This document shows positions 1 through 50,367 of a stretch of DNA of 64,000 bases, in pieces (the first letter of the stretch is position 1; each line of letters starts with the position of its first letter). Under the pieces are notes generated by a model. It did no database searches. It was not told where the DNA came from and saw only the letters and a program-made list of their open reading frames with translations. Both the position numbers and the translations under genes were made by a program. The stretch is from Lepidodermella squamata. Lineage: Eukaryota > Animalia > Gastrotricha. The stretch is taken from assembly GCA_047495785.1 (NCBI GenBank), contig JBLDXI010000031.1, positions 1,116,001 through 1,180,000 on the forward strand, given 5' to 3'.

Positions 1-283
1 GAAACTTTACGCCTAAAAAGTTCAAGAATGGATTTTGCATTCTTTGCTTTGATCTATCGAGAGATGGTAATATAAGTGGCACGAGCATTCGTCGCTCCGG
101 CACCCTAAGAGTCGAGCTCAGCTTTAACTCAGCCACTACATCTGTTCTTCACCTATTACTACTAGCTGAAAGAGATGCTGTAATCGAGGTCTGCTTTTTT
201 CCGATGGATCGTTTATTGTTTCTATAAAAAACTCGACTCCCCTTCAGATTACAAAAGCGCGAGAAGTTCTCTACGAATCATGA
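1..283 (+). CDS. Maverick major capsid protein (double jelly-roll), C-terminal part; exons <1-188, 248-283
   Basis: Frame from nt 3 reads FKNGFCILCFDLSRDG...SGTLRVELSFNSATTSVLHLLLLAERDAVIE. After GT-AG intron 189-247 it continues ITKAREVLYES*. This matches the typical Polinton MCP end (FDL...G.LRLE..F...E.D..IEI...R.V). Confidence 0.85.
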
Positions 284-819
284 ATACCGAGCAGATCAAT
301 CAATTTGTATCACATGACAAGTTTTTATCACAGGCTCGAACTCTGGTTGTGCCTTGCGATGGCCTCGTTGAAATAGGTCTCGTTCCAGATCTTAAGCGCC
401 CCTTAGGCATAATTGTTAATACGGATGAATCTCATCGGCCTGGTCGTCACTGGGTGTCTATTTTTCTGTCAAAAAGCAGCACTGAATTTTTTGACTCACT
501 CGGGCAAGAGCCTTCCTACTATAGCTGCTATATAGATAATTTTCTAAAGCTGAATGCCAAAGGAATTCCTTTTTCTAATGTTACCTTTCGTAGTTTACAA
601 CATTCGCGGAATAAAGTTTGCGCTTTATATTGTATTCTTTTTATCAGACATCGTAGCAAAGGTCTTAGTCCATCGCGTTTTCTCGCCTCATTTTCAGCGA
701 GTAACTTACATAGTAACGACTTGCTAGTTTACAAAAGCGCACGTAGAATATTCAAAGCCTATAAAAGGCTTCAGACCTGCATTCAGCCTATTTTACCTAG
801 AGATGGCAACATACTATAG
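280..819 (+). CDS. Adenain-like (C5) cysteine maturation protease
   Basis: IIVNTD...PGRHWVSI (His), EFFDSLG (Asp), LQ.....VCALYC (Gln/Cys) motifs. The ATG overlaps the MCP stop (ATGA). Confidence 0.93.
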   Translation: MNTEQINQFVSHDKFLSQARTLVVPCDGLVEIGLVPDLKRPLGIIVNTDESHRPGRHWVSIFLSKSSTEFFDSLGQEPSYYSCYIDNFLKLNAKGIPFSNVTFRSLQHSRNKVCALYCILFIRHRSKGLSPSRFLASFSASNLHSNDLLVYKSARRIFKAYKRLQTCIQPILPRDGNIL

Positions 820-1577
820 CTTATTATCACCACCGCCTCCATCAGCGCTGCCTATTATACACCCTTCAGCTAGTATAATTTTCGGGTTCGGTCTTTTTTA
901 TTCAACTTCCTTCTCTCTTCGCTTACACTGGAAATATTCCCAGACCTTCAGGATGTGGCAAATCAACGCTGCTTTATCGGATAATCGCGGCTGATCCCTT
1001 TTCAATCTATCCTTACCCGACTCGTATATTTTTCTATTACGGAATTTGGCAGCCGTTATACGATCGTCTAGCTTCAGCTACGAAATGCCTTCGAGGCATT
1101 GATATTGAATTCATACAAGGAATCGAAACGTTTAGCGTTGATAACATCGATTCAGCACAAAACTCGGTAATTGTTTTTGACGATCTCTACTCGGATTGCA
1201 ATGATTCGGCAGAGGTTCTTCGGCTGTTTGTAATGGGAGTACATCACAAGTCCTGCACCGTCTTTCTAGTTTCCCAAACTCTATTCCCTCGCGGATCCTG
1301 CAGCGTACAGCTTCGAAATAACGCCCATTACATTTTCTGTTTCGCAACACGTACCGACGCCGGTCAACTACGCAGATTTCTTCAACAAATTTTTCCAACA
1401 AATTGGCGACAAGTTCTCAAGTGCTATGAAAACGCCACAAACTCCACAGATGTCGATGTCGATGGAAAATATTTACTTCTCGACTTGAATCATGACACGC
1501 CTGCTGTTATGCGAATCCGAGCTCAGCCAGGCTTTGGTTTGAACCCGGGTTTTGCATATAGCATAGAAAATAATTAA
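803..1577 (+). CDS. A32/FtsK-like genome packaging ATPase; exons 803-885, 944-1577
   Basis: Removing intron 886-943 (GTTCGG...CCCAG) gives HPSASIIFGPSGCGKST (Walker A), then VIVFDD (Walker B), GVHHKSCTVFLVSQ and LRNNAHYIFCF. Confidence 0.92.
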
Positions 1578-1682
1578 TTACTTCTCGACTTGAATCATGA
1601 CACGCCTGCTGTTATGCGAATCCGAGCTCAGCCAGGCTTTGGTTTGAACCCGGGTTTTGCATATAGCATAGAAAATAATTAA
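1473..1682 (+). repeat. Perfect 105-bp tandem duplication of the ATPase 3' end
   Basis: 1473-1577 (TTACTTCTCGAC...AATAATTAA) is repeated identically at 1578-1682. Confidence 0.9.
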
Positions 1683-1725
1683 AAAAAGGCTAATTATCAG
1701 TTTTTGCACTTTTTTCTAGTTTCTT

Positions 1726-2076
1726 TTGTTAATGCAAAAGACTAAAGTTAAACGCAAACGACTTCTCCTTAACCTTGCTTTCATTATCAAGGCGAAGACA
1801 CGGCAACATCGTGCTCAACTAATAGCAATTGCCTCTTCGGCGATCATCAACTGCCTTGTTCACTGTGCCAGACACTTGGTTTACCGTAGCAAGACTCTAA
1901 ACGTACCTTCACGTCGCATTCTCGAGAAATTGAAGTCAAGTGGAACGAATACGGTTGAATTTAATCGCCGCGTGTTCCTCGAATACTTGCGAGAAATACC
2001 AAACGGCAGATTTTTCACTAAGCTTCTCCCCAAAGCGTTAAAGGCGGCTACCGAGAATTTGAATATCAAGCTGTAA
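1726..2076 (+). CDS. Small basic conserved Maverick protein
   Basis: K..RQHRAQLIAIAS..IINCLVHCARHLV resembles the small basic ORF found next to the ATPase in many Polintons. Likely ATG at 1732. Confidence 0.65.
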   Translation: MLMQKTKVKRKRLLLNLAFIIKAKTRQHRAQLIAIASSAIINCLVHCARHLVYRSKTLNVPSRRILEKLKSSGTNTVEFNRRVFLEYLREIPNGRFFTKLLPKALKAATENLNIKL

Positions 2077-3087
2077 ATGAGACCTACAACAACAAGAACT
2101 AATCCGGCTAAAAGAATGGCTATAGTACCGGCTACTACTACCACTACTACTGCTACTACGCCGTCACAACTTCGCGAAAAACACAATCAGCCGCAGCTTA
2201 GCCATATGGCTGTTATCAATTCAAACCTCGACGCATTACTAGAAGCTGCATCTCAAGCGAAAACAAGCAGCGAAAAAGCAGCGCTCATGGCTAGTTTTCA
2301 CGATGGACTGAATAAATTTATTCGGAAAAGACGTGCCATTTTTTCTGAGAACGAAGACTTTTCCAAGCGATATCCCAGCGAGAAAACCAGTACTACTCCA
2401 CTTACTGTAACGTCAGCACCAACAGTAAAGCCGGAGCCTAATGCAGCCGTCGAACGTGATTTAAAGACTCTACTTTCGCGGCTTTTACATCAATTCGCCG
2501 TTGTGAAACGAGAACATCAACAACAACAAATTTCCCAGGAGGAGGAGGAGGAGGAGGAACAGAACACGAATGACACGGATGATACAGACTACGACTACGA
2601 TAATAACAACAACAAATTGCGAGTGAAACGCCTGTTTTCAACACCCAAAAGCCCACTGGTTAAAATCGAGCCACTCGAACTCATCCAACAGTTTACAAAA
2701 CCCGATAATACTGGTCCAAGCAGCACTGTAGGTGGCTCATTGTTGGGCTCGCAACAAGCACCGCCAAATATTATCGTCTCGCCAATGAAAACTCGTTCTC
2801 ATTATCATCAGCCTGACGCTGCTGCTGCCGCTGAACCCACCAAGCCCAAGAAGAATAATAAGAAGAGCAACGAAGCAAAAACTGCAACAATCTCCAAGAG
2901 TCAAAAGCCGAAACAGCAACAACAACCACGTCCGACAAAGAAAAAAGGCGCGCCTGCTGGTCCTACATCACCCCCTGCCTACCAACACCTGCCTCAAGAA
3001 GAAGAAGAACAGCCAGAACAACCGCAACAAGATGGCGCTGGTGCAAGCAATCTTCAAAAAGACAACTTTTGGAAATTGTTCTCGTAA
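2077..3087 (+). CDS. Maverick low-complexity protein (putative core/structural), C-terminal QDGAG motif
   Basis: 336-aa ORF starting immediately after the previous stop (TAAATG). T/Q/E/K-rich, ends QDGAG...FWKLFS. Confidence 0.7.
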   Translation: MRPTTTRTNPAKRMAIVPATTTTTTATTPSQLREKHNQPQLSHMAVINSNLDALLEAASQAKTSSEKAALMASFHDGLNKFIRKRRAIFSENEDFSKRYPSEKTSTTPLTVTSAPTVKPEPNAAVERDLKTLLSRLLHQFAVVKREHQQQQISQEEEEEEEQNTNDTDDTDYDYDNNNNKLRVKRLFSTPKSPLVKIEPLELIQQFTKPDNTGPSSTVGGSLLGSQQAPPNIIVSPMKTRSHYHQPDAAAAAEPTKPKKNNKKSNEAKTATISKSQKPKQQQQPRPTKKKGAPAGPTSPPAYQHLPQEEEEQPEQPQQDGAGASNLQKDNFWKLFS

Positions 3088-3233
3088 TTTATTTCATTAT
3101 ATTAATTTTTAAGTTTATGCAAAGCACATAAATAATAAAGAGGCATCAGATAATGTGTTCTTTTGTTCCTACAGCCACCACTACTAGTTGATATTCTCAT
3201 GTGCCATTGTCTTAGATGTGACGTGTCTTGTTA

Positions 3234-4649
3234 TCAGAACATATTTTCATCGTCGAGATCATTGTCGTCAGCGAGCGACGGCGGTGACGCCAAATTGCTA
3301 GTACTGCTGCTGGTCGTCATTGTCGAGCTACTGCCGCTACTAATGCTCAAATCGTTGTCAGCTCGCCACCAGTAGTAGTTGTTCGAAGAGCCTGGGGCGG
3401 CGACGGAGGAGCTCGCACCTGGCGCGTACGCGCCAGGTACGAGCTCGGAGGCGGCGGCGGCGGGGCCCGGGGAGGCGGGGAAGTTCGAGCTGGTGGTGAA
3501 GGTGTCCATGCTGTTGTTGCTGCTGTAAATCATAGGCTGGATCACCGCGACCGGGCGTAAGTTTTCAGTGTTGCTGTTATATTCATCTTCTGCACGCTGG
3601 TTGCGTTGTTGTTGTTGTTGTTGTTGTTGGTGGTGGACGGATGAAGCGGACGACTGTGGGACGACGGCAACGGGCAAAGGTGGTGGTGGCAGGCACTGGC
3701 ATTGTACTAGGCCCGGCCAGCAGCAGACACATGCCGCAGTAGCACCGCCTGCGCCACTTCGCCGTGATGGCGTCAGACCAGCCGCCAGCTCGTGCTGTTC
3801 ATCCAGCAACTGACACCATGCCCACATCGGAATCATTACGTTTTGTTGGCTCGCGACGAAGCTTCTGGTATTAGAAATAGACGTAGAGATGGAGTCTGTC
3901 GAAGAAGGAGACGATGCCCAGCTCGCTGGATGAATCCGCCGCATTGCACGTTCGATGATAAAATGAACATGCACAGCCCGAATTCGCTCACCTCGGAAGT
4001 TTCTCAGAGCATCGAAAAGCATGTGCTCGAGAAGAGCCTCGCGGCCGCTGTGATTACTTGCCGAGGTGAGCGAGTCGTACATGATCGAGCCTTCCGCATG
4101 CGGGTCGCGGTTCATAAATTTGGCCTCGAGAGAAATAGTCTCGTACATCGCCGTTGACTGCGTGCTGTCGATGTACGACAGTCGAGCAGCGTCAGTCAAC
4201 AGCGGAGGCCAAAAACTTGCCGCGACCAAAGCATCGTCGATGGTGGAAGTCGGTTCGCTGGTGCCGGCGGTCTCGTAAAGGTACGCCTCGCTGTCGCGTG
4301 AGTTTATGGCAAATATTTGGCACCATTGCCATACACCCACGGCGCTGTGAACAGGTCCGTCGCTCGGTCGGGCTAACATGGCGACGTCGATGTTAGGGGG
4401 ACAATGTTCACGAAGGAATGTACAGTCCAGCCGTCTGCTGGCTCGTCGTATCCATGTCCGGACGTGCTCCAGGGTCACGAATCGACCCCGGATGTTCGCC
4501 GCGAAGTCGAATAGTGCGGCCTCGAGAAACGCCCGGATACCAACGGCCAGCCAGACGGCAAAGACCTGTGAGTTCGCTCCAAACAGGTCTGGCGCGAACA
4601 ACATGATAGCAGCAGAAGCAGAAGCGGCGGCGCCGGCGATGGAAGACAT
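3234..4649 (-). CDS. Maverick accessory protein with a duplicated ~80-aa domain and Q/S-rich acidic tail
   Basis: Long open frame with a likely ATG at 4649 (MSSIAG). Two related segments: FLEAALFD...EHVRTWIRRASRR...WQWCQ and LLEHMLFD...VHVHFIIERAMRR...WAWCQ. Confidence 0.7.
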   Translation of the reverse strand: MSSIAGAAASASAAIMLFAPDLFGANSQVFAVWLAVGIRAFLEAALFDFAANIRGRFVTLEHVRTWIRRASRRLDCTFLREHCPPNIDVAMLARPSDGPVHSAVGVWQWCQIFAINSRDSEAYLYETAGTSEPTSTIDDALVAASFWPPLLTDAARLSYIDSTQSTAMYETISLEAKFMNRDPHAEGSIMYDSLTSASNHSGREALLEHMLFDALRNFRGERIRAVHVHFIIERAMRRIHPASWASSPSSTDSISTSISNTRSFVASQQNVMIPMWAWCQLLDEQHELAAGLTPSRRSGAGGATAACVCCWPGLVQCQCLPPPPLPVAVVPQSSASSVHHQQQQQQQQRNQRAEDEYNSNTENLRPVAVIQPMIYSSNNSMDTFTTSSNFPASPGPAAAASELVPGAYAPGASSSVAAPGSSNNYYWWRADNDLSISSGSSSTMTTSSSTSNLASPPSLADDNDLDDENMF

Positions 4650-4726
4650 GATGACAACGAAAAAATAATTTAAGATTAGAAGACTAAAGAACAATAAAGA
4701 AAAATTTGGTTAATTGTGCCTGTTTT

Positions 4727-7700
4727 TTATTGGTGATACCCATAAGGTAAAGTGCTAATGACAGATGAATTTATCGTCGATGTTTTTTGCTCAGTTAAAA
4801 TAAGAGAACGCTTTTCAAAACAAGTGAGTCGAATAAATTTTTGGAAACGTTCTTCCGAGCAGGTGAGGTGAGCGAGTGGAATCTGCTTATGTTGAATAAC
4901 ATCGCCTTGTTCAATCCCGAGGCGAGGTTCATCATCATCGTCATCACTGTCGTTCTCAACACCATCCGACGACTCGAGCGATTGCTGTTGGAGAGCCGAG
5001 AGTAAAAGACGAGACAAGGACTCGAAATTGAGTGTGCTTTGGGTTAAAAAACTCTGGCGTATTCCTTTGACCTTGATTTCGACGCGAAGTTTAGATGTGA
5101 GGTAGCAGTAGCTTTTTGCGCCAAGGCATGTAAATTCTATAATGTGCTCATCTGGATCCAATTGGTTGGACAAATCGCCTAGAAAATCACCAATATCCAG
5201 CAACAGCGGTTGATTACGTGGTTGAATCCAGAAAATCGAGTCGGTGTCCGTGTAGCAGGCGAGATTTTGCACCTTGAACAACTCACGAAACAGCTTGATT
5301 CGGGCGTGGCTAGTCACAAAGGCCGCAATAGGTAGGCAAACGTTGGCACTCGGTGCTTCTTCGTCATTCACACAGGTGTAGGCAACTTGCATTTTGAGAG
5401 GGTTCGTAACATTGTAGCCGACGGGATTGATTTCGCGAACCGTATTCGTGGAGCAGAGCAGAATTTCAGCTAGTTCTTTTTGTGAAGAGACGTACGTTTT
5501 GCGCGGTATTTCGATTTTCAGCGCCCATCGCCCAAAGAATGAGTTCAAAAGCAGCTTGCTCACCATTCGAAGGCCGGGGTTTTTCGCTTTCAATTTTTCC
5601 GGGTCCAAATGAATTTTTTCTCGGCGAAAATATTCAGCGATAAAATGTGTCTTTTTCTCCTCAGTGTTGGCTGAAGGCGGATAGCCGGATGCTTCTGCTT
5701 TGAGTTTAAGAAAATGTCGAATAAAACTTTAAAAAAAGGAATAGTAATTAGAGCCATTTTTGCAGGGGTTTTTTTATATATTGTTTACCCGTTGAAAATG
5801 TCACTGCGTCGTTCAGGATAATCGTAGATTTCATGCAATTCAACAATTTTGTAGTTGTGTTGTAGTGCTTCGTTCAACTCAATGGTCGTGTACGTTCCGC
5901 GGAAGGCTCGCATATCATCTGAGTGTTTACATTCCGTGTTGATGTGGTATCGATTTAGTCTCTTGAAGCGCGACGCCTCGTTGCTGCATGCATAGCAAAG
6001 TGAGAAACACAGCTTGCCGTGTGAATTGCGCATGGGCAGTATCGGGATGAGGAGGTTGCGGGGCGGGAGAAAGAGACCGGCAACGAGCCCGAGACATTCC
6101 CTATCAAACCCGTCTGTATTGAAGAAGCGTTTGAGAAGCATGTCATGATTAAGTCGTTGACGAAGAGTCCGCTCGCAGGGGAAACCGACGGGATAAACGT
6201 GATCAACCATACACGCCGGGTAGAGACTAGGTAACAAATAGTTAATAGTGGAAAAAAACCAATTCAAAGCGAAGTAAATGTTACCTACCTTATAAAGTCA
6301 GCAGATTGAATGGTTTCCTCACTTGTGTTGCATTTAACGCGTAGTTTAAATGGCTCGCATCGGCCGCCGAATAGAGAATCGCGAGGTCTGATGGGGGGAG
6401 GAAGATTGCCGAAGTCGGCAACAAATTCCCGGATTCGTTCATCGGCTTCGATCATTGCTCTGAATTCGCATTCGTAGATAAATTCGTACCGAACGTTGAT
6501 ATCGCGCAGTAGCTGTTGCCTTTCTGACACCTCATCGTGAAGTTCTCCGAAAAACTTGCCGAGGCGTCGATTGAAGTCGTGAGAGTTGAAGCATTTCGGA
6601 CAACCTTAGCGACGAAGATAATAATAATAATAAGGAATTCGAGAGATCAAAGAATACCGTGGATGTAGCAACCATGATAGTCAATTGCAAGCGCATCCAC
6701 AGCCTCGTGGGTTGTGGGGTGAAGATGAGCCGGGACATAACTAGACGGTAGAGATGGAGAAGACTGTAATTGAAAATTAACGAGCTTTGTTAGAGCTGTT
6801 GCCTCACATTAGCGTCGTCGCGTTCCGCAGGGAGATAAAATTAATATCACATTAAGTAAAGTAATATATACCCGTCGAGATGTAAGACTGTTCGCCGGCC
6901 TGACTTGATAACAACAATACGCTCTTCTCGTCCATTGTGCCCGTGTCGTAATAAGGCATAGTGCTCCGGTTGGAAGCGCTTGAGATACTCGAGGTAAATT
7001 ATAGCCCCTCTACTGGTAGAATCGTTTGCAGAAAATCCGCTGGGTGGATGAAGGGCTATCAGCTCGGGTTTGAGGAATAGCTTGCGAAAAATTAAATGAC
7101 CTGAGATGATGGTGGTATTATCGACAGGCAATTATCAAATGGAAAAATTGTAGGGCATTACTTAACGAGGCTAGTGTGCTAACGGCGAAGAAGGGGTCTG
7201 TGCTGCAATAGTCGATTATCAGACGGCGGAATCGGAGGCATGATTGTAGTAAAACATTGACATCTTGCCGGCAGTAGTCGATGAATGATTTGTGAAAGTC
7301 GAAAGACTCTCCATTTTGTTGTTTTTCAGCTAAAAACGACATCAGTTCGCCATATTCCGCTGTCGACATGGTTTCATAGCCATATGCATGTGGCGGTGGG
7401 TAAGGTCCGATATAGTTGTAGCTAAAAAAATATATTGTATTTTTTTCGTTAAGAAAAAATTAATGAATTTACTATTGCGGCTGATTCATTTTTCGAGGAA
7501 AAAAGGTCTTTTTAACCGAGAGTGAAAACATAGCCGGTAGATTTCGCAGTGGGGCAAAGAGAAACATCCAGCTATCGATGATTTTTATACGGCGACCAAT
7601 TGAAATTTGTATGAGTTTCCCATTGCGCTCAACAATTTGAAATTTCACATTGACTCGAGTTTGAAGCTCTGTTAGAAGGAACCACGAGTCGAAGCTGAAT

Positions 7701-9588
7701 TGAGGAAAAAAATGAAAATTAAAAAGCAAATGTTACGTGATTTATACCGTGCTGTGAAGTGGGCGATGGCTACTGAATGGGCGTTTTCCGGAGAGAGCAG
7801 AAAATCGAGAAATTGGGCAGCCGAATCGTCACCAGAAAAAACGTGCTCGCCACAGGACGTCGTACAGTTTTCCGATTGGATTATTGGTTCTTCATTCATA
7901 CATCCGGGACAGCATTTGAAGGCAACACAGAGGTTAGGAATTAGCCGACAGCTTGCTTCTTCAACTCGAGTTTCAAAGTCGAAAACAATGATATTTTTAT
8001 ATGAAGTGCGATCTACGAGTGGCGCAACTTGCATATAGCATTGATGCCTTGGGAGAGATTGACCGACTGGGAGGTTCTGAGCAGTGGCTAGGATAGAGTG
8101 ACAGATTCTACATCGCCGACCTTTGCAGTTTTTGTGTTTGGTCAGATCGATGAATAGCCGTGAGCAGTTGACACAGCGTTGCTTGGGCTGACATCGGTGA
8201 TTGACCTTGTGATTATTGTAGCACGTTGGGTTGTAGTAGTTTCGATGGCATTCGGAGCATCGTCGCCATTGTTGGGGGAGGCGACTGCAGTTCGCATCAG
8301 GTTGGAGACACTTATCACAAGCGAATTCACAAGCATGTGCCTGATCTCGCCGACTCAGCCCTTGATAGCAGCTTTGACAGAAAAACCGAGTCCCAATGAT
8401 TGAAGCGAGGTTGCTTAGGAGATGAATATGATTATCGCCTGTCACTAGCAGATAGATACTTTCCCGTGGAGTCGGGTCATTTGGTGAAGATGCTGGGTCG
8501 GTGGTCGTAACTCTTTGAACGGAGCTGCTGTAAACTATGACTTTAAAATCGCGATTGTGTAAAAGTTCCAAGGCTTGACGAAGGCTGGTCAGGTCGCTGC
8601 CTAAATTGTATCCAGCTTGGTTTACAGGTAACTTTGCCGTTAGTAGAAGCTGTATTGCGGCTTGGCTTTGTAATGATTGCCTGGGATCTCTGATTTGGTC
8701 GTAGTATTTTTTAAGCTGGCGATCAGCCTTGTTTGCCATATAGAGCAATCTAGCAGCACCGAGCATCAGTGCACGAGGTAGACAGCGGTGGTCTTCCGTA
8801 TTGTTAATCTGAATGACTGAGCGAAAGTTACTGAGGTGTTTGTCGATAATTTCAGGAACGGTTGGTCGCTTGGTCACATCTCGACGGCGTTTCCCTGAAA
8901 CTTTTATGCTCTTGGTAGGGTTTGAGCCGTCGCTACTGTCGTTTTCGGCGCTGGTTGTTGGGACTCGACATACTACAGCTTCGATGAACCAGTGACCCTC
9001 TAGGAGGAGATTTTCTTGACTATTAAGAATTCGCTCGATAAATGAGTAGATCCGCTCATCTGTCAACTTTTGGATCGGGTGAAACGGCAGGCAGATCGCT
9101 CTTAAATAGAAAGCTAGTAATCAATTGGAAGACAAGCTAGAAAAGAGAACCTGTGGAGTTGAGGGTGTTCAATTCGTAGTTTGACAAAGATGCGCTCCTT
9201 CTTAGGATTGATAGATACGTGTTGATTAATTTGGAGTCGAAGCTTGTCGGCTATATCAATTAGCATGATAACTACGCGGCGAAATCGCTGTTCTACGTCT
9301 TCAGATTCGATCTCACCGCGCTTCGCGCTTGGAATTGTGAATGTATGCAGGAGGGTAGACGAGTTGTTTGGCTCCGGAAATTCATCGTCGGCATTTTCTG
9401 GGGTTGCTCGATTTCGCCAACTACCAGGCCGACCAGCACCTAGCTGAGGCGGGTCTTGGAAATTTTCGTCGAGCAGGTGATTAAGGAAGTGTAGCTCAAA
9501 AATTTGACCATATATTTGAAATTTCGGAGCAAGGACGCGTTGATTAGCCCGAACAATTGAAAAGTAAAGCGGAGAGGGATCAATTCTC
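4727..9588 (-). CDS. polB: Protein-primed family B DNA polymerase (TP/vOTU-like N-terminus, Zn ribbons, exonuclease, VSR-like insert, polymerase); at least 9 exons, 5' exon unresolved
   Basis: Introns at 9101-9150, 7695-7747, 7422-7472, 7101-7161, 6741-6871, 6605-6657, 6227-6288 and 5727-5788 restore one frame. Motifs: ExoI VFDFET, ExoII AHFTARFD, ExoIII YCRQDV, motif A DFISLYP, motif B KLLLNSFFGRW, motif C YTDTDS, KSY and KVKG. Confidence 0.93.
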
Positions 9589-9728
9589 CTAAGAAAAAAA
9601 TTGAGAATAAAATTTATTATTATTAGACTTGTATATTGAGAGAGCAAGAAAAAACTATATAGGGGGAAAAAACTTGATCTTTCAATATTAAATATTATAG
9701 TTATTGTAGTCTTATTGCTGATGTGACG

Positions 9729-10634
9729 TCATTCGATGAGAATGACCTCGTCTTCATCCACTTGGTACCCATCCTCGTCATCTTCCTCCATTTCAGGCTC
9801 GGGCTCGCTGTTATCTGACGCCTCTTCCTCTTCTTCCATTTTCTTAGACGGTTGTTTGGCAGGTGGGATCACTATAGGGGATTGAACCTCAGATTTTTGA
9901 AGACTTTGTTGCGTTGATTCATATCGACTGTCGCTGGCAGCTGAGGCTATCATGAGTAGTTTGGGCGATTGTTCCTTGGTAGTAGATTTTTTGAGGCTCT
10001 TCTTTTTGACCAGAGAACTCGTTGGAGTGGAGGGGACTGCTGCTTTTTTAATAGCGTTGGATGGTGCTTTCTTTTTAGTGAGGGTCGTTGCATTTTTCTT
10101 GTTCCCTGGTGTCATAGTGCTCTGGAGAATTTCTAGCTGGCTGTCTACGTCTCGAATGAAGCCGGGCAAAACCTCGGTATATAGATGTCGGAATGATGCT
10201 GCGTCTATAAGAATGCCATTAACTGTAGGATAGCTGACGCCCGTATTAGCTAAGATTTCATTGAATAGAAAATTTTAAGTACTAATATATAATTTAAATT
10301 TACAGCCGTAAGGGCGAGTGAAATAACGGATGGCGACTCTGGCTGGAAGAGCTGGTGCTCGTTGTATGGAGAGTCGGACTAATTCAGCTATCAAATGACG
10401 TTCGGGAAACTCGTAGCTTGGATCCGCGATGGCGATTTCAAGCTGCCCGATCCACTCTGTGTCTTCGATGAAGTGGAGCTTGAGCGCAGCCAGAAAATCT
10501 TTAGCATCTGCTGTGAAATGGCGATGTTGGGACACGCGGTTGTTTATCCATATCGTGCCGGGCGGCCGAAAATTTATGGCATATGACGACCCGAACGAAG
10601 CTACAATGCAGTGCATTTTGGAAAGAGTGTTCAT
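9729..10634 (-). CDS. PC4/p15-like ssDNA-binding protein with basic and acidic tail; exons 10634-10304, 10249-9729
   Basis: Intron 10250-10303 (GTAAAT...CTTAG) joins two ORFs into RVAIRYFTRPYGSNTGVSYPTVNGILIDAASFRHL...IRDVD. This resembles the PC4 core (VDIREY...P..KGISL....W..L...I.DID). Confidence 0.62.
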
Positions 10635-10995
10635 TTTAATAAAGATTTAAACAAAAATTGAATAAAAAAATGAAATAATTTGATCTTTAAATAGGGCTGT
10701 GATAGGCTAAAATGAGATGGTCAGTCTCGTATTACAGGTGAAAAATGGCCTGGAGCCTAATAGCTCGGAGGCATTTCGACAAGTCTGACCGCTATTTTGA
10801 ATGTAACTTAGGATTGTTTATAGCTCTGTAGTGCTTAATAACTGTCATTAAACTTAACAGAGTTGATGAGATTATTGTTATTGTAAACAAGTAAACCACC
10901 TGCTTAGTCATTAACTTGGTGATTTAACAGCAGTAGGTCCAGGTTGTATTTTTCATTTTTTATATATTTCCAATATTTTCAATTTTTTCAAACGA

Positions 10996-11680
10996 ATGTC
11001 TCGAGTGTGGTGTTTCATCGACGGCTGTGTTGGCGTAGGTAAAAGTTGGCTTTTAAGTCGCATGCAAAGGGAGATTGGGGAGCAGTTTAATGGCCGTGAA
11101 ATTCGTTATTTTGAAGAACCGGTTAAAGAATGGCAGCAGCGAGGTGATCTATTGGCTGCATATTATAAAGATCCACATCGGTACGCATTCGACCTACAAT
11201 GTTTAGTTCATGGAGCCATGGCTAGGCAAACCGTCGAGATTGGCCGTTTGGAGCGAAATATTGTCGTAGTCAGTGATCGCTGTTGGCTTACATCCCCTCA
11301 CGTCTTTGTGAAGTTGGCATATTCGCGGTATGGTCTTGAGTAAATTAGGAAAAATATCAATTTTCATTATTTTATTCAGCGGTTATTTGACGGATACGGA
11401 ACTGAATATGCTGCGTTGTATCTACACGCCGTTAGATGAGTGGGCACCAAAGCCGTCGAGAATGTTGTTTTTGAAGGCCCCATTGTCGATTTTGCAACAA
11501 AGGATCCAGATGCGTGGGAGAGATGGTGAGACTTCGATAGATATGGAGCACTTAGCTGCTATGGATAAAAGTTTTGACCAATTTTTTGACGATTTTTCAG
11601 CTGGGAGTAAAATAATGTTGTCTGAAACCGATAAGGAACAAATTGATATGAAGTTATTGCTTGAAAAAATAATAAATTGA
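10996..11680 (+). CDS. Deoxynucleoside kinase (dNK/dCK family); exons 10996-11327, 11380-11680
   Basis: IDGCVGVGKS P-loop, EEPV.EW, LLAAYYKDPHRYAFDLQ, SDR and RIQMRGRDGE lid. The 52-nt GTATGG...TTCAG intron restores the frame. Confidence 0.93.
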
Positions 11681-11693
11681 TCAAAGGCAGAAA

Positions 11694-12034
11694 TTAGGTA
11701 TTTTTATTTCTCCGAACGGTATGGCAAGGTAGGGCAGAGCAGTTCATCATAAAGCCAAACAGGTTATTCAATAAAAATACATTGTGGCTTTCAAGCTCGA
11801 TAATTTTCCCCATACTTAATTGGTGAAATGCATGGATGACTTGGGCAAGTTCGGTGACAGCTTGAGTAGTAGTACTATTGACGCTGAAGTTGTATACTTG
11901 CAGTGAGACGTCGATAATAGCCGAGAGTAGGCAGCAGGAAAGTAGAACAATTTGAAGACCTGTGAAAAAAAACAATGGGAATTAGATGAAAAATGAGCAA
12001 AATATTTGTAATTACGCTCAGTTGAAAGATGCAT
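11694..12034 (-). CDS. Small signal-anchored/secreted glycoprotein (~94 aa); exons 12034-12016, 11959-11694
   Basis: ATG at 12034 plus intron 11960-12015 (GTAATT...TCACAG) gives MHLSTERLQIVLLSCCLLSAIIDVSL, followed by NFS, NST and NCS sequons. Confidence 0.55.
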
Positions 12035-12148
12035 GGTTGACTGATCGACGCAGAAAATTATATGAAGACTGAGTTTGATTTTGTTAGAAAGCAGGCAAGG
12101 CATTAATCGAGATCGCGTGCTGTCTGGGCTATTTTTTTCCTACCTAAA

Positions 12149-12817
12149 TTATTTTTTTAATAGAAATAACGCGATAAATGCTTTAATCAATGACGCTGTT
12201 GTTCCAAAGCTGTGAACACCAGTGATGATAATTTTGTTGGTATGAAAAAGAAGAATTGAGAGGGAATGTTTGGCATTACATTGAAGAGGGCGAGTTCTTA
12301 AGGCGGGAAATTTCTCTGGATGATATATTAGGAAATTAGAGTGTGCGGCAGCAATATGACTTAGATTAGTCTGAAATGGAAGCTTTCCAGTAAAGACCAA
12401 ATTTTTTATTTTAATACTTGAGAGTTTGACTGGATAACCAGCTATTAGAATTTTTCGCGCAATTTTTCGAATAGCTTTTCTGGCTATAGCAAGCGACCGG
12501 GCACCTGTACATATGAGGGTGCCGGACGAATATAGCATAAGCGTTATTAGTGGATTTTTGACTCTTATAAAGAGAGCTGAAGTCATTTTTTTCGGCTTAT
12601 ATTCACAGTTTTTAAGTAGGTAGCATAGCTGTTTTAGGTCTAACTTAGTTTGAAGGGAACAAATTGTTATTGTATTGACCAGTTCGAGCTTTATGTCGAT
12701 GACGGCATTGCCGGGGAGAGCGACGGTGGTGATGTCTTTGTGCTCTGGTGAAGAAAAATAATGCCAGGAGTCTGGAAATTGTGTCTGGAACAGACAGAAC
12801 CAGCAATGTTGAGACAT
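12149..12817 (-). CDS. TBP: Divergent TATA-box-binding protein homolog encoded inside the Maverick
   Basis: Two TBP repeats: LVNTI..CSL...LDLKQL...NCEYKPKK...LYSSGTLICTGARS...ARKAIRKIARKI...GY and IKNLVFTG.LPF...L..I...H.....YHPEKFPAL...LLFHTNKIIITG. Confidence 0.9.
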   Translation of the reverse strand: MSQHCWFCLFQTQFPDSWHYFSSPEHKDITTVALPGNAVIDIKLELVNTITICSLQTKLDLKQLCYLLKNCEYKPKKMTSALFIRVKNPLITLMLYSSGTLICTGARSLAIARKAIRKIARKILIAGYPVKLSSIKIKNLVFTGKLPFQTNLSHIAAAHSNFLIYHPEKFPALRTRPLQCNAKHSLSILLFHTNKIIITGVHSFGTTASLIKAFIALFLLKK

Positions 12818-13110
12818 TTATCAATCGCCTCGCATAGAGACGTGTTGATGTTGGGTGTGAAACAGATGGCAATGAAACTGTCTTGTGGCTTCAGATTAGG
12901 TTTAACTATTACAGATGCCTTCGACTTTTTCTTAATTGATTGATTAATTATGCTCTTTCGAGAAGCGGGTTTGCCTTTGACTGCGGACGGAGGCGGTAGC
13001 TCGTGTCTGGTTGGTGATGATGGCGAGGACGTAGAGTTGGAATTAAAAATATCAGCAAAGTTAGGGGATCCGATGTCAAAATTGAATGATTTTGAGGAGC
13101 ATTCATTCAT
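12691..13110 (-). CDS. Hypothetical S/P/K-rich protein overlapping the TBP 5' end
   Basis: Open frame with ATG at 13110, overlapping TBP by ~127 nt in another frame. No recognisable family. Confidence 0.4.
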   Translation of the reverse strand: MNECSSKSFNFDIGSPNFADIFNSNSTSSPSSPTRHELPPPSAVKGKPASRKSIINQSIKKKSKASVIVKPNLKPQDSFIAICFTPNINTSLCEAIDKCLNIAGSVCSRHNFQTPGIIFLHQSTKTSPPSLSPAMPSST

Positions 13111-13349
13111 ATTAGAAAATATGAAAGTTAACAAATGAGAAAAATAGGAAAAGTGAAAAAAGTGAGGAAAAAAGGTGCTCTTATATGAACAAAATGAAAA
13201 TGTTGCTAGAAAAAAAATGCTTTTATTCTCGATATTTAGCTAAAATAGGTGAATTAAGCAGCGGCGGATGTAAATGTCTTTGTAAGTCTTATAATGCTAA
13301 TTTTTACGCTCAAACAGCACGTAATTCGTGGACCCGCTGTAGTGTGCCC

Positions 13350-14264
13350 CTATCCTCCTCCTTTACTTTCGCGTGCAGTCTCCTGGAGTACGCGAATTTG
13401 TTTTCCGAAATATAGCAGCAACAGCAGTGGCTTGACGCAATAAACCCTGATGAATTCTTCATCTTTGAATTTTCCTGGATTCTCCGGATCCTCAGGATTT
13501 TCCGCTCGCTGCGCGTAAAGCTCGAGGACCATATCAATTTCATCTACTACGTCTCTCCTCTCCTTCAGTCTGTCCTCAGATCCGATTTTCGCAATAGTTG
13601 ACGACTTGGGCACCTTAGTTTCCACAAAAGTGCCGGTATTTGTAGGAAGCGCATTCGCCATCTGGGCCTCGCCGCAAATTTTACGGTTCAGACCGCGCTT
13701 CAACTTCGCTGGTTTTTCGTACTGCAATTGTCGAGCGAATTCTTTGCGCTTTTCTCCAGTTATACGGCGCGGTTTAGGCAGACCAGCCTCATGGTTGACC
13801 GGTTTATTCGGCCGAAGAAATATCTCAATTTCCTGCGCAGCATCAGGTTGAAGATTTGAGAATATATCAAATTCTCTGCAGCTGCTCGACCCACAATAAG
13901 CATTCCCGACCAATTCGTGGGTTTTTTTCAATTTTTTCGCATATCGAAAATTGATGGTACATTCCCCTGAAATTGGGGCAACTTTGTTGTCGAATATTAC
14001 CGACCATCCTGGCTGCAGCGCTCCTCGTTTATCGATCTCGATAGTGTCAAACTGCTCTTTGGCCATTTTGAATGATAGGCTCCGCATCGACGGATCTGAC
14101 TCCTCATTCGACGCTGGTGCTGCTGAGGTGGTGCTGGTGCAGCTATCGTGAGGCTGTTTAGTTGCTGGTTTCGGGGCGAAATATTGTGGCAAATGCCTTC
14201 TCATGACAGTATACAGGTGACTGCGTCTTTTCAGAGTGTTATCGCCATGTAACCTGCCGGCCAT
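13350..14264 (-). mobile_element. 3'-truncated NOF-FB/Mutator-like transposase N-terminal fragment
   Basis: C...C...H followed by RRITGEKRKEF...L and FIRVYCVKPLLLLLY...QIRVL resembles the region preceding the first catalytic Asp of NOF/MULE transposases. The ORF stops before any DDE core. Confidence 0.55.
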
Positions 14265-16763
14265 TGACGCAAAAACACCGACTTCGGGATTTGGACCTGT
14301 AATGAATGCAATCTTATGTTATTCCGATATGTACATATTCCTGGATTTTTGTATTCTTTTAACTATTGAAACTAATTACTGCAAACTAATTCACCCATTT
14401 ATACCTTATTAGTAAACTATACAGCGTGTCCCATAAGTTGCGCGACTATTTTTCAATTTTCCAAAATTTATGAGCGAGAATTAAAATATTTTTCCGAAAT
14501 TAAGCCTGACGGGAGAATGTTCCATCATTCATCCACGAAATTAACGAAAAAATTGAAAAAAATCCGGAGAAAACTCGGAAACCCCCGATGGTAACTGGTT
14601 CGGTAATTTTCGTTATTATACCCGGTTGGGCTAAATTTCTCGGGTTGGGAAATTCGGAATGTAGAATGTAGCAAATTTGTTCCTAATTAATTTTCCTGCA
14701 CTCCAGAATTGCTGTTTCCTTTTTGTCCTTATCTATGAGCTAAGGATATAATGGGTCCTAACTTTGGAGAAAGCAAGTTTTAAAATGTTTAAAATTTTGA
14801 TTTTCGTCTAAAATGTGATTTTCCTGTCATCCACGACCAAAACGGTCGGAGAAAAAATATCCTCCGAACCTCGCACCTCATGATTGATTCAAGATAATAC
14901 AAAAAGCTTGTAAACAAACCTGTTCCACTTGGGATCAGAGGTTGATCCTTCATAAAATCCTTGATTTTGTTTATCAAGACATCGTCATCCTCCTTGGACG
15001 ATTCCATAGCGCCAGAAAACGTAATCAAAACTATAGCAAGTTAAGGAATAAACAATAAGTATATGTGCAGATTTCGTCAACATAAGGAATTGAACGTATA
15101 AGGAATAATAAGGGGCATATATTGAAACGTTCATGGCTCATATAAAGGACGTCAACGCCGGTGCGGAATATGCGGCCTGCTTCTTCAAGTAGCGAAAATC
15201 GGTGATAATATTTTAGAATTGTGGGAAATACGTTTAGGTATATATGTGTAATTTTGAACACCCTGCCTTTAATCGTTTCCTCATATGTTCCGTATGTCAT
15301 GTTACCGCTTCTGCCGTTGTTTCAGCCGTGGAGTCTCCTCTCTTCTTTGTGCGCCGCACACCGAATCACCGTTATTGACGGTATTTTATAGTATTACCAT
15401 TAATTAATATAATTACCGCACCGGTTATATTATATATAGGGCGCGGCGGCGCACTGGCCGACGCACGCGCCCCTCATTTCAGCTCTATCGCTGTAAGCGT
15501 AAAAGGCACCTAATATTACACCTCGCCGCCGGTGATCGCAAACGACTGATTATCTGAAATCAGTATCCGAGTCAAAAAATGCGTATGACTGTTTCGGGTT
15601 GAAATAAGCCGTACTTTTATTGTCTGCCTCAATTTTATTTCTGTAATGGCTTTATGAGGGCTGTTAATTATTGCCTACTATGGACAATTTTGGATCAGCT
15701 GCAGCAAGATTCGTCGAATAAGACCAGGAAATATTTCAGCGCCGATAAATACCAGTCGTTAACAATAAAACTCGAGTAGTGACAGCATCTAATTTATTGA
15801 TCCTGAAAATTATCAATTACGAAACATCGATTCCGATTTGGTATTTATTTCAATTTCCGCCGCTATCAGAGGTCCGTCATTGCATCAAATCGCAAAATGA
15901 ATACCATAACAAGATTCAGCATAGTCGAATTAATAATTCCTGAAAAATTGGCACACATAACAGCTGTACCAAGCACAGAAGCTGCGAAAATATGTCTTGA
16001 AACACCCTATTTCAATGAAAAGTGTCCCGAACTGGGTCATAACAGTTTCCAATCTGAAATCTGACGCTGCCACGAGAATCAGCAGGGTCGAAAACCCCCA
16101 TAACAGTCAACTGAGCACGAGAAGCCACATAATAAGCGCAAAAGCTAAGAAAATTGTGTTGTGGACACCCTAAAACTTGAAGTCACAAGCCAAATTTGGC
16201 TTCTGAGCGACAGGTGCGTCGGGTATTGGCAAAATTAGTGCCAATCGACTCCAATGAGCCATAACAACTATCCCACAAAGCGGCAATTCTATAACAGCGG
16301 TGGTTTTCACAGAAGCCAAATTTGGCTTGTGACTTCAAGGCAGTAATTATGACCCGTCGTCGTGCAAGCAAAAAATGGTTTATTTGCGGCTGTAATAATT
16401 TTCATGCCGCGTGTTGAATTCGTGGTTGAGCTATAATTATGCGCGCTTAATTAGAGGGCGCGGTTAGTAGGCTAGCTTAAAGCAAGACTTCTTGTTGCCA
16501 GCACTCAGCACCTCGCCCCTCGCCAAGCCCGGAATAACCATTGAAAGTAGTAAAAATGAAAAAAGCGTTGAAAAGAATTCGGGAAAACTAGAAGTAGAAT
16601 ATAATATCAATTTTGCAAATACTTACGCAGTCCCGTAGAAAACGTCTAGCTCCTGACGTCATTTGGGGTAAAAATTTGTTAAATCGCCGAGTTTTTTATA
16701 CGCAGCTTTTACAGAAATATCTAAGTGATGCGAATTATAATCAACTCAACCTTTCGAGAGATA

Positions 16764-18847: not shown

Positions 18848-21800
18848 TTAGTAGATGATAAACCCATCAGACGACCGCAGAGAAGAGTGTAGGGACCGCG
18901 TTTGAGCGGCATTTGCTAACTGTCCATTACGATCTACAAATGGAAATGAGCATGAGTATGGCGAATACAAGAGGTCAACGTGGCCATTTCTTACGGCCAA
19001 AGCCCCAGGCGTCTGGCCGTCTTTATCCTTAGCTTTCAAATCCGCTTTGCAGTTTCTGACCAGGAAATCCTCGACTTCAGTGCGTCCATTCTCCGCAGCC
19101 AAATGCAAAGGCGTTTTGCCGTTTTGATCAACAGCTTTCACATCCGCTCCGTATTTTTCGATCAGCATTTTGACGATTGCTTCGTGACCAGCCGATGCAG
19201 CAAAATGCAATGGCGTTTTGCCGGTTTTGTCGACAGCTTTCACATCCGCTCCGTATTTTTCGATCAGCATTTTGACAATTGAATCGCAACCAGCCGAACC
19301 AGCAGCAAAATGCAAAGGCGTCTCGCCGTGTTGATTAACAGCTTCCGGAAACAAATTGAATTTACCCCCGAAAAACGGTACTATTGAAGCCAAGCTAGCT
19401 ATTATAAAATAGAATAGAGACGTCCAGCTGTATGTAATTAATTTGTCCATCAGAAGCTTCACCACTGAATCGTGGCCAGCTATTACAGCCAAATGCAAAG
19501 GCATTTTGCCGTTTTGATCAACAGCTTTCACATCCGCTCCGTATTTTTCGATCAGCAACTTCACAACTGGAACTTGGCCTCTTTTCGCGGCCAGATGCAA
19601 AAGCGTTTTGCCATCTTTATCAATAACAGCATTCGCATCGACTCTGTATTTGTCGATAAGCAACTGCAAGGCTATAACGTCGCCTCTCTCTGCAGCGAAC
19701 TGTATTAACATTGGCGTCGGGTTCAGCAACTTCACGACTGAATTTTGCCTAGCAATTACAGCTAAACCCAGTGGCGTTTTGCGGTTTTGATCAACAGCTT
19801 TCACATCCGCTCCGTATTTTTCGATCAGCATTTTGACGATTGCTTCGTGACCAGCCGATGCAGCAAAATGCAATGGCGTTTTGCCGGTTCTTTCGACAGC
19901 TTTCACATCCGCTCCGTATTTTTCGATCAGCATTTTGACAATTGAATCGCAACCAGCTGATGCAGCAAAATGCAAAGGCGTCTCGCCGTGTTGATTAACA
20001 GCTTCCGGAAACAAATTGAATTTACCTCCGAAAAATGGTACTATTGAAGCGAAGCTAGCTATTATAAAATAGAATAGAGACGTCCAGCTGTATGTAATTA
20101 ATTTGTCCATCAGAAGCTTCACCACTGAATCGTGGCCAGCTATTACAGCCAAATGCAAAGGCATTTTGCCGTTTTGATCAACAGCTTTCACATCCGCTCC
20201 GTATTTTTCGATCAGCAACTTCACAACTGGAACTTGGCCTCTTTTCGCGGCCAGATGCAAAAGCGTTTTGCCATCTTTATCAATAACAGCATTCGCATCG
20301 ACTCTGAATTTGTCGATAAGCAACTGCAAGGCTATAACGTCGCCTCTCTCTGCAGCAAATTCCTCCGGCGTTTTATTAACAGCTTTCGCATAGGCTCTGT
20401 ACTTTTCGATCAAAATATCCACGACTGGTAAATGGTTATTCCGAACAGCCAGATGCAGAGGAGTCCGGCCCTCTTTATCGACATATTTCCCATGCTCTCC
20501 AAATTTTTCGATCAGCCACTTCACGACTGTAGCGTGTCCATTCTCCGCGGCCAAATGCAAAGGCGTTTTGCCGTTTTGATCAACAGCGATCATAACCGCT
20601 CGGTGGTTTTTGATCAACATTTCGACGATTGCATCGTGACCAGCCGATGCAGCCAAATGCAATGGCGTTTTGCCGGTTTTTTCGTGAGCATTCACATCCG
20701 CTCCGTAATTTACGATCAACAATTTCACAACTTGAACGTGGCCACTCCCCGCAGCCAGATGCAAAAGCGTTTTGCCGTTTTGACCGACAGCTTTCGCATC
20801 TGCTCCGTAATTGTCGATCAGCAATTTAACGACTGACTCGTGGCCGTTCTCCGCAGCCAAACGCAAAGGTTTACAGCGGTATTCATCGACTTTCTTGTTC
20901 GCTTTGAGGTAGTCGATCAGCAACTGAACGACAGATATAGCATCCCAAAACAGCGACATCAAGCCATATTCAGCAGCGGCTTTTGCCTCAGCATTCATCA
21001 GTATCTCCACGGCTTTAACGCGGCCATTCTGCGCGGCCAGTTGCAAAGGCGTTTTGTCGTTTTCATCAACAGCTTTCATATTCGCTTTGTATTTGTGGAT
21101 CAGCAACTCTATGACTAGAGCGTGCCCATTCTCCGCAGCCAAATGCAAAAGCGTCCTGCAGTCTTTATCAACAGATTTCCCATCCGTTTGAAATTTGTCG
21201 ATCAGCAATTCCACGACTGGCGCATGGCCGTTCTTCGCAGCCAAATACAAAGGCGTTTTGCTATCTTTATCAACAGATACATCCGCTCCAAATGTTTCGA
21301 TCAGCCACTTCACGACTGTAGCGTGTCCATTCATCGCTGCCAAATGCAAAGGCGTTTTGCCGTTTTGATCAACAGCTTTTACATCGGCTTTGTAGTTTTT
21401 GATCATCATTTCCACGACGGACACGTGGCCCTTTTCTGCTGCCCAATGCAATGGCGTCCGACCCTTATTATCAACAGATTTCACATCTGCTCTGTAGTTT
21501 TTGATAAGCAGCTTCACGGCTGGAGCGTGTCCATTCTCCGCAGCGGAATGTAATATCGTCCGTGCTTCGGTGTCGACGGCTTTCACGTCAATTCCGTAGT
21601 TGTCAATCAGCAATTCCACGACACATTTGTGGCCATTAGTTGCAGCCAAATGCAAAGGCGTCCTGCGGTCTCCAGGAACAGCTTCTGCATCCACTCCGTA
21701 ATTACGCAACAGGAACTGCAGAACTGAATCTACGCTACTTTTCGCCGCCAAGCGTATTGGCGCCCATCGTTTTGCGTGAACAGTTTTTACCTCCGCTCCC

Positions 21801-50322: not shown

Positions 50323-50367
50323 CCCTATATTCAATGAAAATCAGGAACATTTGAAATTCTTAGGGCT

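What the first reader, a model, noticed from the sequence alone, without database searches (positions are those of the whole stretch)
1..13367. Intron-rich but coding-intact Maverick/Polinton virus (13 reconstructed spliceosomal introns)
Seen: GT-AG introns at 189-247 (MCP), 886-943 (ATPase), eight in pPolB, 10250-10303 (PC4-like), 11328-11379 (dNK) and 11960-12015 (glycoprotein). Twelve are 50-62 nt, the same size class as host introns here. Several split catalytic motifs exactly (Walker A G|PSGCGKS, motif A DFIS|LYP, H|GCPKC). After splicing I found no stops or frameshifts in these genes. Known: Polinton core genes are usually intronless or intron-poor. Inference: this is a potentially active lineage that gained many host-style introns, and ORF-based virus searches would miss it or call it a pseudogene.
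Basis: partly seen in the sequence, partly recalled or inferred. Interest (0 to 1): 0.9.

Follow-up and report, generated by a model that had tools for sequence, protein, structure and literature searches.

The report
Intron-riddled Maverick virus in animal genome
A virus-like Maverick/Polinton element in an animal genome has 13 short host-style gaps in its capsid, packaging, polymerase and accessory genes, two of them seen spliced out in a likely RNA sample and the rest predicted to be introns, so it likely depends on the host's splicing machinery and would look dead to intron-blind virus screens.

Summary
Observation confirmed. All 13 gaps have GT..AG ends; 12 are 50-62 nt, one is 131 nt. 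Read exon by exon, the genes have no internal stop and keep the motifs checked. Contigs of run X2 (RNA by guess) skip exactly 189-247 (capsid) and 10250-10303; the DNA-like run X1 shows no joint at either. For 7 of 8 polymerase introns the homology-optimal cut has the GT-AG length. Against: X2 keeps the ATPase intron unspliced; the 131-nt intron's ends are uncertain; integrase, left end and TIR/TSD lie outside the window, so activity is not shown. Introns are rare in relatives (4 of 67 loci; 37 are one ORF), but the motif-A intron sits at the same codon and phase in a clade at 31-34% identity. Papers call Mavericks intronless; the one printed exception found is introners in dinoflagellate elements. 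This scan noted intron-bearing Polinton genes before in at least 5 other genomes. Verdict: an intron-rich variant of a known virus-like element; likely a recently mobile, spliceosome-dependent lineage.

The parts
1..283 (+). 3' end of major capsid protein gene (exons <1-188, 248-283); stop overlaps the protease ATG
   Evidence: 28% to residues 376-436 of the 448-aa double-jelly-roll-like ORF of L059, pairwise E 7e-6; 30% to L023
189..247 (+). MCP intron, 59 nt, phase 0
   Evidence: skipped exactly by an X2 contig of depth 92.8, 186 nt on the short side; no joint in X1
280..819 (+). adenovirus-type cysteine protease, no intron
   Evidence: PF00770 E 0.0055, below cut-off; tblastn hits in 5 of 92 loci; His/Asp/Gln/Cys motifs present
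803..1577 (+). packaging ATPase, two exons (803-885, 944-1577)
   Evidence: 2792 relatives at E<=0.001; Walker B and arginine-finger-type motifs present
886..943 (+). ATPase intron in Walker A, 58 nt, phase 2; retained in the X2 contig
   Evidence: cut ranks 6 of 2650, 69.3 bits against 59.3 unspliced; first in-frame ATG without splicing is 1233; X2 record 9 covers 246-1266 without gap
1467..1676 (+). 105-nt tandem duplication; second copy lies after the ATPase stop
1732..3087 (+). two ORFs of unknown function (1732-2076, 2077-3087)
   Evidence: covered by X2 record 11
3234..4649 (-). 471-aa ORF of unknown function with a diverged second copy in X1 and X2
   Evidence: 21 of 30 differing codons listed are synonymous; no Pfam, Atlas or usable fold
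4727..9732 (-). protein-primed DNA polymerase (pPolB group 1 type) in nine exons, possibly ten
   Evidence: PF03175 pieces; 108 relatives, best 39%; X-linked read-through has 0 internal stops and scores 945 bits; exonuclease and A/B/C motifs present
5727..5788 (-). pPolB intron, 62 nt, phase 2
   Evidence: rank 4 of 425 cuts
6227..6288 (-). pPolB intron in motif A, 62 nt, phase 2; same codon and phase as introns in L040, L062, L078
   Evidence: rank 7 of 1167; model position 859 in all four; X1 has a 1-nt deletion inside it
6605..6657 (-). pPolB intron, 53 nt, phase 1
   Evidence: rank 2 of 547
6741..6871 (-). pPolB intron, 131 nt, phase 2; ends uncertain
   Evidence: rank 519 of 2033, best of 5 GT-AG options
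7101..7161 (-). pPolB intron, 61 nt, phase 1
   Evidence: rank 8 of 1626
7422..7472 (-). pPolB intron, 51 nt, phase 2, in-frame stop
   Evidence: rank 1 of 744; X1 has a 1-nt deletion inside it
7695..7747 (-). pPolB intron, 53 nt, phase 2
   Evidence: rank 4 of 1712
9101..9150 (-). pPolB intron, 50 nt, phase 2
   Evidence: rank 4 of 1401
   Evidence: inferred: T-rich acceptor, GC 0.24 against 0.46 downstream, 107 open codons before the first ATG; nearest of 15 possible donors; no homology support, not seen spliced
   Evidence: open exons; no Pfam, PDB or Atlas match for the separate exons
10250..10303 (-). intron, 54 nt, phase 0
   Evidence: skipped exactly by one X2 contig, depth 11.4, 46 nt on the short side; no joint in X1
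10996..11680 (+). deoxynucleoside kinase, two exons; intron 11328-11379 (52 nt, phase 2)
   Evidence: PF01712 positions 3-98 and 98-182 meet at the intron ends
11694..12034 (-). small predicted secreted or membrane protein; intron 11960-12015 (56 nt, phase 1)
   Evidence: sequence shape only; no family
12149..12817 (-). intronless TATA-binding-protein-like gene
   Evidence: PF00352 E 5.7e-30; PDB TBP E 4.5e-27; related genes in L055 and L060
13305..13367 (.). likely right terminus (reads AGT.. inward); cuts an open 316-codon ORF of the flank
   Evidence: X1 contigs break at 13330/13375 and have loose ends at 13305 and 13359

Best explanation
This is the right-hand part of a Maverick/Polinton whose capsid, ATPase, polymerase and three accessory genes carry 13 GT-AG gaps, two seen spliced and the rest predicted introns, and which likely belongs to a recently mobile lineage that would need the host nucleus and spliceosome to make its proteins. 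Shown: the gaps, open exons, two exact splice joints in X2. Inferred: host RNA polymerase II reads the packed gene blocks (stops overlap or abut the next start at 280-283, 803-819, 2074-2079, 9729-9732), the spliceosome removes the introns, and any retained intron ends the frame. Inferred: the introns were gained one by one while the lineage kept replicating, because they share no sequence with one another and sit in genes that stayed open. Speculative: weak donors (MCP, ATPase, first pPolB introns) let splicing efficiency limit ATPase and polymerase output while capsid RNA is made.
For: Exact joints at 189-247 and 10250-10303 in X2, none in X1. Homology-optimal cuts for 7 of 8 pPolB introns, the ATPase and dNK introns. 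No internal stop and all motifs checked present. By one test, 5 of 6 breaks in the window score as introns, while 58 of 66 breaks in related loci do not and mostly look like point lesions. Longest string shared by two introns is 10 nt, so no introner family. The four one-base indels between X1 and the window fall in introns or between genes (2074, 6252, 7440, 11988). The right end cuts an ORF still open for 316 codons, as a recent insertion would. X1 holds variant contigs at 2074, 10970 and 11988. L040 and L062 keep the motif-A intron with unrelated intron sequence, so such introns persist in Polinton lineages; L059 has integrase, capsid, protease, ATPase and one pPolB intron.
Against: The X2 contig over the ATPase keeps 886-943. 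X2 is RNA only by guess, each joint rests on one contig, and 11 of 13 introns were not seen spliced. The tree does not group the window's pPolB with the other intron bearers (2-3 changes; AU p 0.234 neither rejects nor shows a clade), so the shared position may be parallel gain. No close relative was found (best 39%). The X1 indels lie in homopolymer runs and may be sequencing noise. The X1 variants may be alleles, not extra copies.
Confidence: 0.6

Rival explanations
1. A long-resident, host-kept (domesticated or latent) provirus: the introns were gained after integration at one inherited locus that stayed under purifying selection for a host benefit, as in polydnavirus-like domestication (recalled), and the element no longer moves.
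For: Expression in X2 with no other letters in the listed pieces; introns fit the host's short class. PMC12768974 states that introns in endogenous nucleocytoviruses are linked with decay or endogenization. PMC12166617 finds most introners entered viral elements after integration.
Against: A terminus that cuts a still-open ORF, full pPolB motifs, variant contigs in X1; introns at the same codon in distant Polintons; introns unrelated to one another.
Confidence: 0.25
2. An intron-rich lineage, but this copy is already disabled or silent for replication, for example by a lesion in the unseen left half or by failure to splice the ATPase intron.
For: ATPase intron retained in the X2 contig; 105-nt duplication at the ATPase end; left half not visible; 96% of vertebrate Maverick loci are degraded (PMC8097293).
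Against: No stop or frameshift in the genes examined; the duplication leaves the ATPase frame whole.
Confidence: 0.12
3. The gaps are copy-specific insertions or assembly errors in a pseudogene and the GT-AG ends are chance.
For: Some donors are weak; 11 of 13 not seen spliced; the 131-nt and 11960-12015 gaps have little support.
Against: Two exact joints in X2; X1 contigs run through the gaps; 1.4% chance per site against 7 of 8 matches.
Confidence: 0.03

Closest known systems
Mavericks/Polintons of animals (eupolintoviruses, adintoviruses)
   Same: pPolB, packaging ATPase, adenovirus-type protease, double-jelly-roll capsid, AGT-type terminus, two converging gene blocks.
   Different: [quoted passage not shown] Here six genes carry 13 introns, 2 per kb in pPolB.
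Introner-containing eupolintoviral elements of dinoflagellates (PMC12166617)
   Same: Intron-type inserts inside full-length Polinton-like proviruses.
   Different: Those are repeated introner families, about 25% in coding regions, mostly inserted after integration, intactness unclear (passages). Here the introns are unrelated to each other, all in coding sequence, in an animal, and two are seen spliced.
Intron-rich mirusviruses (PMC12768974) and punuivirus (10.64898/2026.10.09.758095)
   Same: Nuclear dsDNA viruses with many spliceosomal introns in genes that work; up to 0.65 introns per kb in a mirusvirus episome (passages); introns enriched in punuivirus latency genes (abstract).
   Different: Giant viruses of protists and algae from other lineages; this is a roughly 15-20 kb integrating element of an animal.
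Adenoviruses (recalled, not from a call)
   Same: Related pPolB, protease and ATPase; spliced polymerase and IVa2 mRNAs with tiny start exons.
   Different: Adenovirus introns join leaders and alternative acceptors; they do not cut the polymerase core into nine exons, and adenoviruses have no integrase.

Membership tests
Maverick/Polinton | [quoted passage not shown] | tested here: met
   PF03175 pieces, 108 relatives, 945 bits, motifs present
Maverick/Polinton | packaging ATPase | tested here: met
Maverick/Polinton | adenovirus-type cysteine protease | tested here: met
   PF00770 E 0.0055, under cut-off; hits in 5 of 92 loci at E 9e-14 to 2e-6
Maverick/Polinton | double-jelly-roll major capsid protein | tested here: met
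   C-terminal 62 aa match the L059 ORF, which has a weak PF21738 hit (E 0.0088); only the tail is in the window
Maverick/Polinton | retroviral-type integrase and minor capsid protein | not testable with these tools
   not in the window; no genome held; an X1 contig runs about 1500 nt further left
Maverick/Polinton | terminal inverted repeats, end motif and 6-bp target duplication | tested here: inconclusive
   right end starts AGT but is not the (AGT)2 motif of vertebrate elements; X1 loose ends at 13305 and 13359 fit a short terminal repeat; left end absent
Maverick/Polinton | intronless core genes (as described, a trait rather than a definition) | tested here: not met
spliceosomal (U2-type) introns | GT..AG ends, pyrimidine-rich 3' end | tested here: met
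   13 of 13 GT..AG; branch-like motif found in 9 of 13
spliceosomal (U2-type) introns | exact removal from RNA | tested here: inconclusive
   seen for 2 of 13, retained for 1, no informative cover for 10
introners | repeated, similar intron sequences | tested here: not met
   longest shared string among 78 pairs is 10 nt; the rest of the genome could not be searched
PC4-like ssDNA-binding protein | PC4 domain | tested here: inconclusive
   no match for the separate exons; the putative domain straddles the intron

The most novel reading that the evidence does not exclude
A replicating animal Polinton that has become spliceosome-dependent in all modules and uses selective splicing as a life-cycle gate (capsid intron removed, ATPase intron kept, polymerase start on a 5-nt exon behind an internal polyadenylation site), the densest member of an overlooked class of intron-bearing Polintons that share old intron positions and are missed by ORF-based virus surveys.
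Probability: 0.25. Interest if true: 0.85.

Novelty: new variant of a known kind. Interest (0 to 1): 0.66.

Why it matters
Surveys of Polintons call genes with intron-blind tools on the stated ground that these viruses have no introns (PMC10120064), and count intronless ORFs as the mark of an intact element (PMC8097293). An element like this one would be scored as decayed or missed, so intact Polintons of small-intron animals may be undercounted. Introns in capsid, ATPase and polymerase genes also place its transcription in the nucleus, and give a small system in which intron gain, rare in animal genes (own knowledge), can be dated against a tree.

Tried and rejected
No whole genome is held, so copies, the left end and empty sites could not be searched. 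Run search: no listed holder is on record as RNA. X2 has no cover over 4801-9600 (pPolB), dNK, TBP or the flank; this says nothing on expression. X3 gave only matches of 22-30 nt. Depth in X1 (135-185 on most of the element, about 104 on the flank and on 2075-3757) is no copy number and was not used as one. Word-based searches found no close relative: pPolB and ATPase in viral contigs, ATPase in the protein database. Atlas gave no usable hit for two unknown ORFs; the single-sequence fold of the 471-aa ORF had pLDDT 35.5 and was not searched. One flagged gap in L046 (GC 0.56, poor sites) was dropped from the intron count. A GT..AG at 4684-4739 would join pPolB in frame to the next ORF; set aside because it would cut the conserved pPolB tail, and X2 record 12 runs 6 nt past the acceptor. 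Fourteen-odd GT..AG options could join ORF 12691-13107 to TBP, all GC-rich (0.42-0.50), none favoured. A de novo scan for short host introns returned one candidate and missed the 56-nt intron read by eye, so it was not used. The N-terminal pPolB stretch 9151-9587 has no significant homology. The first IQ-TREE run did not finish. Nine literature searches found no report of an intron-rich animal Polinton; the library lacks most subscription papers and Repbase entries, and no supplements were read.
Full report
Setting. The window is animal DNA: its calpain-7 is 68% identical to an unnamed protein and 49-55% to flatworm and mollusc proteins. No whole genome is held. Positions 1-13367 hold the right-hand part of a Maverick/Polinton: capsid tail, protease, ATPase and two ORFs on the plus strand; an unknown ORF, pPolB, a two-exon gene, a small secreted-type gene and a TBP-like gene on the minus strand; a deoxynucleoside kinase on the plus strand. 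The integrase, minor capsid, most of MCP and the left end are not in the window; an X1 contig runs about 1500 nt further left.

The observation. The five introns given by coordinate have GT..AG ends. Relatives' pPolB proteins match the minus strand in changing frames, and each break has a frame-keeping GT..AG: 9101-9150, 7695-7747, 7422-7472, 7101-7161, 6741-6871, 6605-6657, 6227-6288, 5727-5788. Twelve of the 13 are 50-62 nt and one is 131 nt. They are poorer in GC (0.14-0.40) than five exons measured (0.41-0.49). Exon by exon there is no internal stop in pPolB, MCP tail, ATPase, dNK or the 10634-9729 gene, and every catalytic motif looked for is present (motif choice is from my own knowledge). 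Every intron ends the frame within 0-66 codons if kept.

Is it chance? I scored all stop-free, frame-keeping cuts near each pPolB break against a profile of 79 relatives, with X at the junction. For 7 of 8 the best cut length equals the GT-AG length (tied with +3) and the GT-AG cut ranks 1-8 among 425-1712 cuts. A GT..AG of preset length within 4 nt occurs at 1.4% of random sites. The 131-nt intron ranks only 519 of 2033, though first of 5 GT-AG options; its ends are uncertain. The ATPase cut ranks 6 of 2650 (69.3 bits against 59.3 unspliced), and without it the first in-frame ATG is at 1233. The two dNK halves meet at Pfam position 98. The last MCP exon gives 11 residues where L059 has 12. 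The 11960-12015 intron has no homology support. As a control the same intron-versus-lesion test was run on 66 breaks in 31 related loci: 8 were flagged as introns, one of which (L046) I dropped for poor sites; in the window 5 of 6 breaks were flagged, the sixth spanning two introns.

RNA evidence. Run X2 is RNA by guess; one loose end matches a cDNA template-switch primer (recalled). Its contigs skip exactly 59 nt at 189-247 (depth 92.8) and 54 nt at 10250-10303 (depth 11.4, 46 nt on the short side, marked 'between: not known'); the DNA-like run X1 has neither joint. Against my reading, the X2 contig that carries the MCP joint continues to 1266 without a gap, so 886-943 is retained there. Contigs drop rare variants and do not show single molecules, so this may be poor or regulated splicing, or the unspliced tail of a capsid RNA. 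X2 is filed under another organism code and study than X1, yet its listed pieces show no other letters and it shares the variants of a second copy of ORF 3234-4649; whether it is the same species was not tested.

Relatives. From the best 80 of 474 confirmed metagenome stretches (partial scan) and 12 viral contigs, 67 loci cover at least 500 profile positions: 37 are one ORF and 30 are split. Four (L040, L059, L062, L078) have canonical introns of 111-255 nt; in-frame introns without a stop would be missed, and many loci are near-copies. The window's motif-A intron lies at the same codon and phase as that of L040, L062 and L078, and L040 shares another position with L059. These are 31-34% identical to the window's last exon. 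L040 and L062 are close in protein but their introns are unalike (local score 23 against 243 for L062/L078), so the intron has outlasted sequence turnover. Trees put the window on a long branch apart from them (117 and 33 rows, chosen subsets of the proteins); the AU test does not reject holding them together (p 0.234). The site is a serine codon ending in AG, a likely gain hot spot (inference), so ancestry and parallel gain both stay open. The window's introns share at most 10 nt with each other: not an introner burst.

Host introns. By eye and frame continuity, nearby host genes have introns of 46, 56, 106, 264, 280, 327, about 390 and about 1080 nt. The viral introns match the short class, and one host donor is also weak (GTTTGT).

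Is it active? For: open genes; a right end that cuts a flank ORF still open for 316 codons; X1 contig breaks and loose ends at the terminus; variant contigs; four one-base indels against X1 all outside coding sequence; a second copy of ORF 3234-4649 with 21 of 30 differing codons synonymous. Against or open: left half unseen, no sister copy of a core gene, ATPase intron retained, indels in homopolymers. Activity is therefore likely but not shown.

Mechanism. Shown: GT-AG introns in six genes, two removed exactly. Inferred: nuclear transcription by the host, spliceosomal removal, frame loss on retention. Gene ends overlap or abut the next start at 280-283, 803-819, 2074-2079 and 9729-9732, suggesting long read-through RNAs. 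A candidate 14th intron (9589-9727) would give pPolB a 5-nt start exon; it is the nearest of 15 possible donors, has no homology support, and X2 record 13 covers its donor unspliced, which fits the 3' end of the upstream gene's RNA. That splicing gates the ATPase and polymerase is speculation.

Literature. PMC8097293 (passages and section 7): intact vertebrate Mavericks have no introns. 10.1101/2022.07.12.499685 (passages): nematode core genes intronless, cargo genes with introns. PMC10120064 (passage): prokaryotic gene calling used because endogenous viruses 'do not contain introns'. PMC8547959 (passages): no introns in endogenous mavirus-like elements. PMC12166617 (passages): introners in dinoflagellate eupolintoviruses. 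PMC12768974 (passages) and 10.64898/2026.10.09.758095 (abstract): intron-rich nuclear giant viruses. PMC10748475, PMC12220804, PMC8502044, PMC11296320, 10.64898/2026.10.13.758929 and PMC12721341 (passages) report no spliceosomal introns in Polinton core genes. Nine searches found no intron-rich animal Polinton; supplements, Repbase and most subscription papers were not seen. This scan's own notes list intron-bearing Polinton polymerases in at least 5 other genomes and ATPase introns in others; these are unchecked notes and no look-alike of this element was indexed.

Verdict. Real, more than chance, and partly confirmed by RNA-type contigs. A new, intron-rich variant of a known kind of element, with introns across capsid, packaging, replication and accessory genes. 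Interest 0.66: it contradicts a working assumption of Polinton surveys, but the elements and the introns are of known kinds, the trait recurs in other lineages, and activity and regulation remain untested.

Noticed in passing
window 9589-9732 (minus): Candidate ninth pPolB intron with a 5-nt start exon whose ATG overlaps the stop of the upstream gene, the same overlap as MCP/protease; a polyadenylation-like signal lies inside it at 9613.
   Followed up: partly
window 12149-12817 (minus); L055:8347-8802, L060:4205-4648: TBP-like gene inside Polintons; seen in 2 of 92 related loci. One literature search listed a single review, not read.
   Followed up: partly
L040:1317-3008, L059:6816-6935, L062:1196-1319, L078:768-891: Other Polintons with 111-255-nt GT-AG introns in pPolB; L040 has four; L040 and L059 share one position, L040/L062/L078 share the motif-A position with the window.
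   Followed up: yes
P0230: A related ATPase has a 17-residue insert inside Walker A that looks like an in-frame intron read through (1 of 150 examined); DNA not seen.
   Followed up: partly
window 13350-14318 (minus): 316 open codons of a flank ORF run into the element's end; no Pfam match; it resembles a transposase N-terminal part by recall only.
   Followed up: partly
window 3794-4464: A diverged second copy of the 471-aa ORF exists in X1 and X2; 26 of 34 listed differences are at third codon positions.
   Followed up: partly
window 1467-1676: 105-nt tandem duplication of the ATPase end.
   Followed up: partly
window 18848-22615 (minus): Intronless 1255-aa ankyrin-repeat ORF with near-identical internal duplications.
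   Followed up: no
window 45404-53413: Two tandem calpain-7 copies; the second seems to lack the N-terminal exon. Best named relatives are flatworm and mollusc proteins at 49-55%, so the host is an animal without a close named relative in the list.
   Followed up: partly
window 14420-14640: Very high-depth repeat in X1 (about 18,000 summed depth), also touched by X2 and X3.
   Followed up: no
window 24820-25380 (minus): ORF with a GIY-YIG-like tail, by recall like a Penelope-type retroelement end.
   Followed up: no
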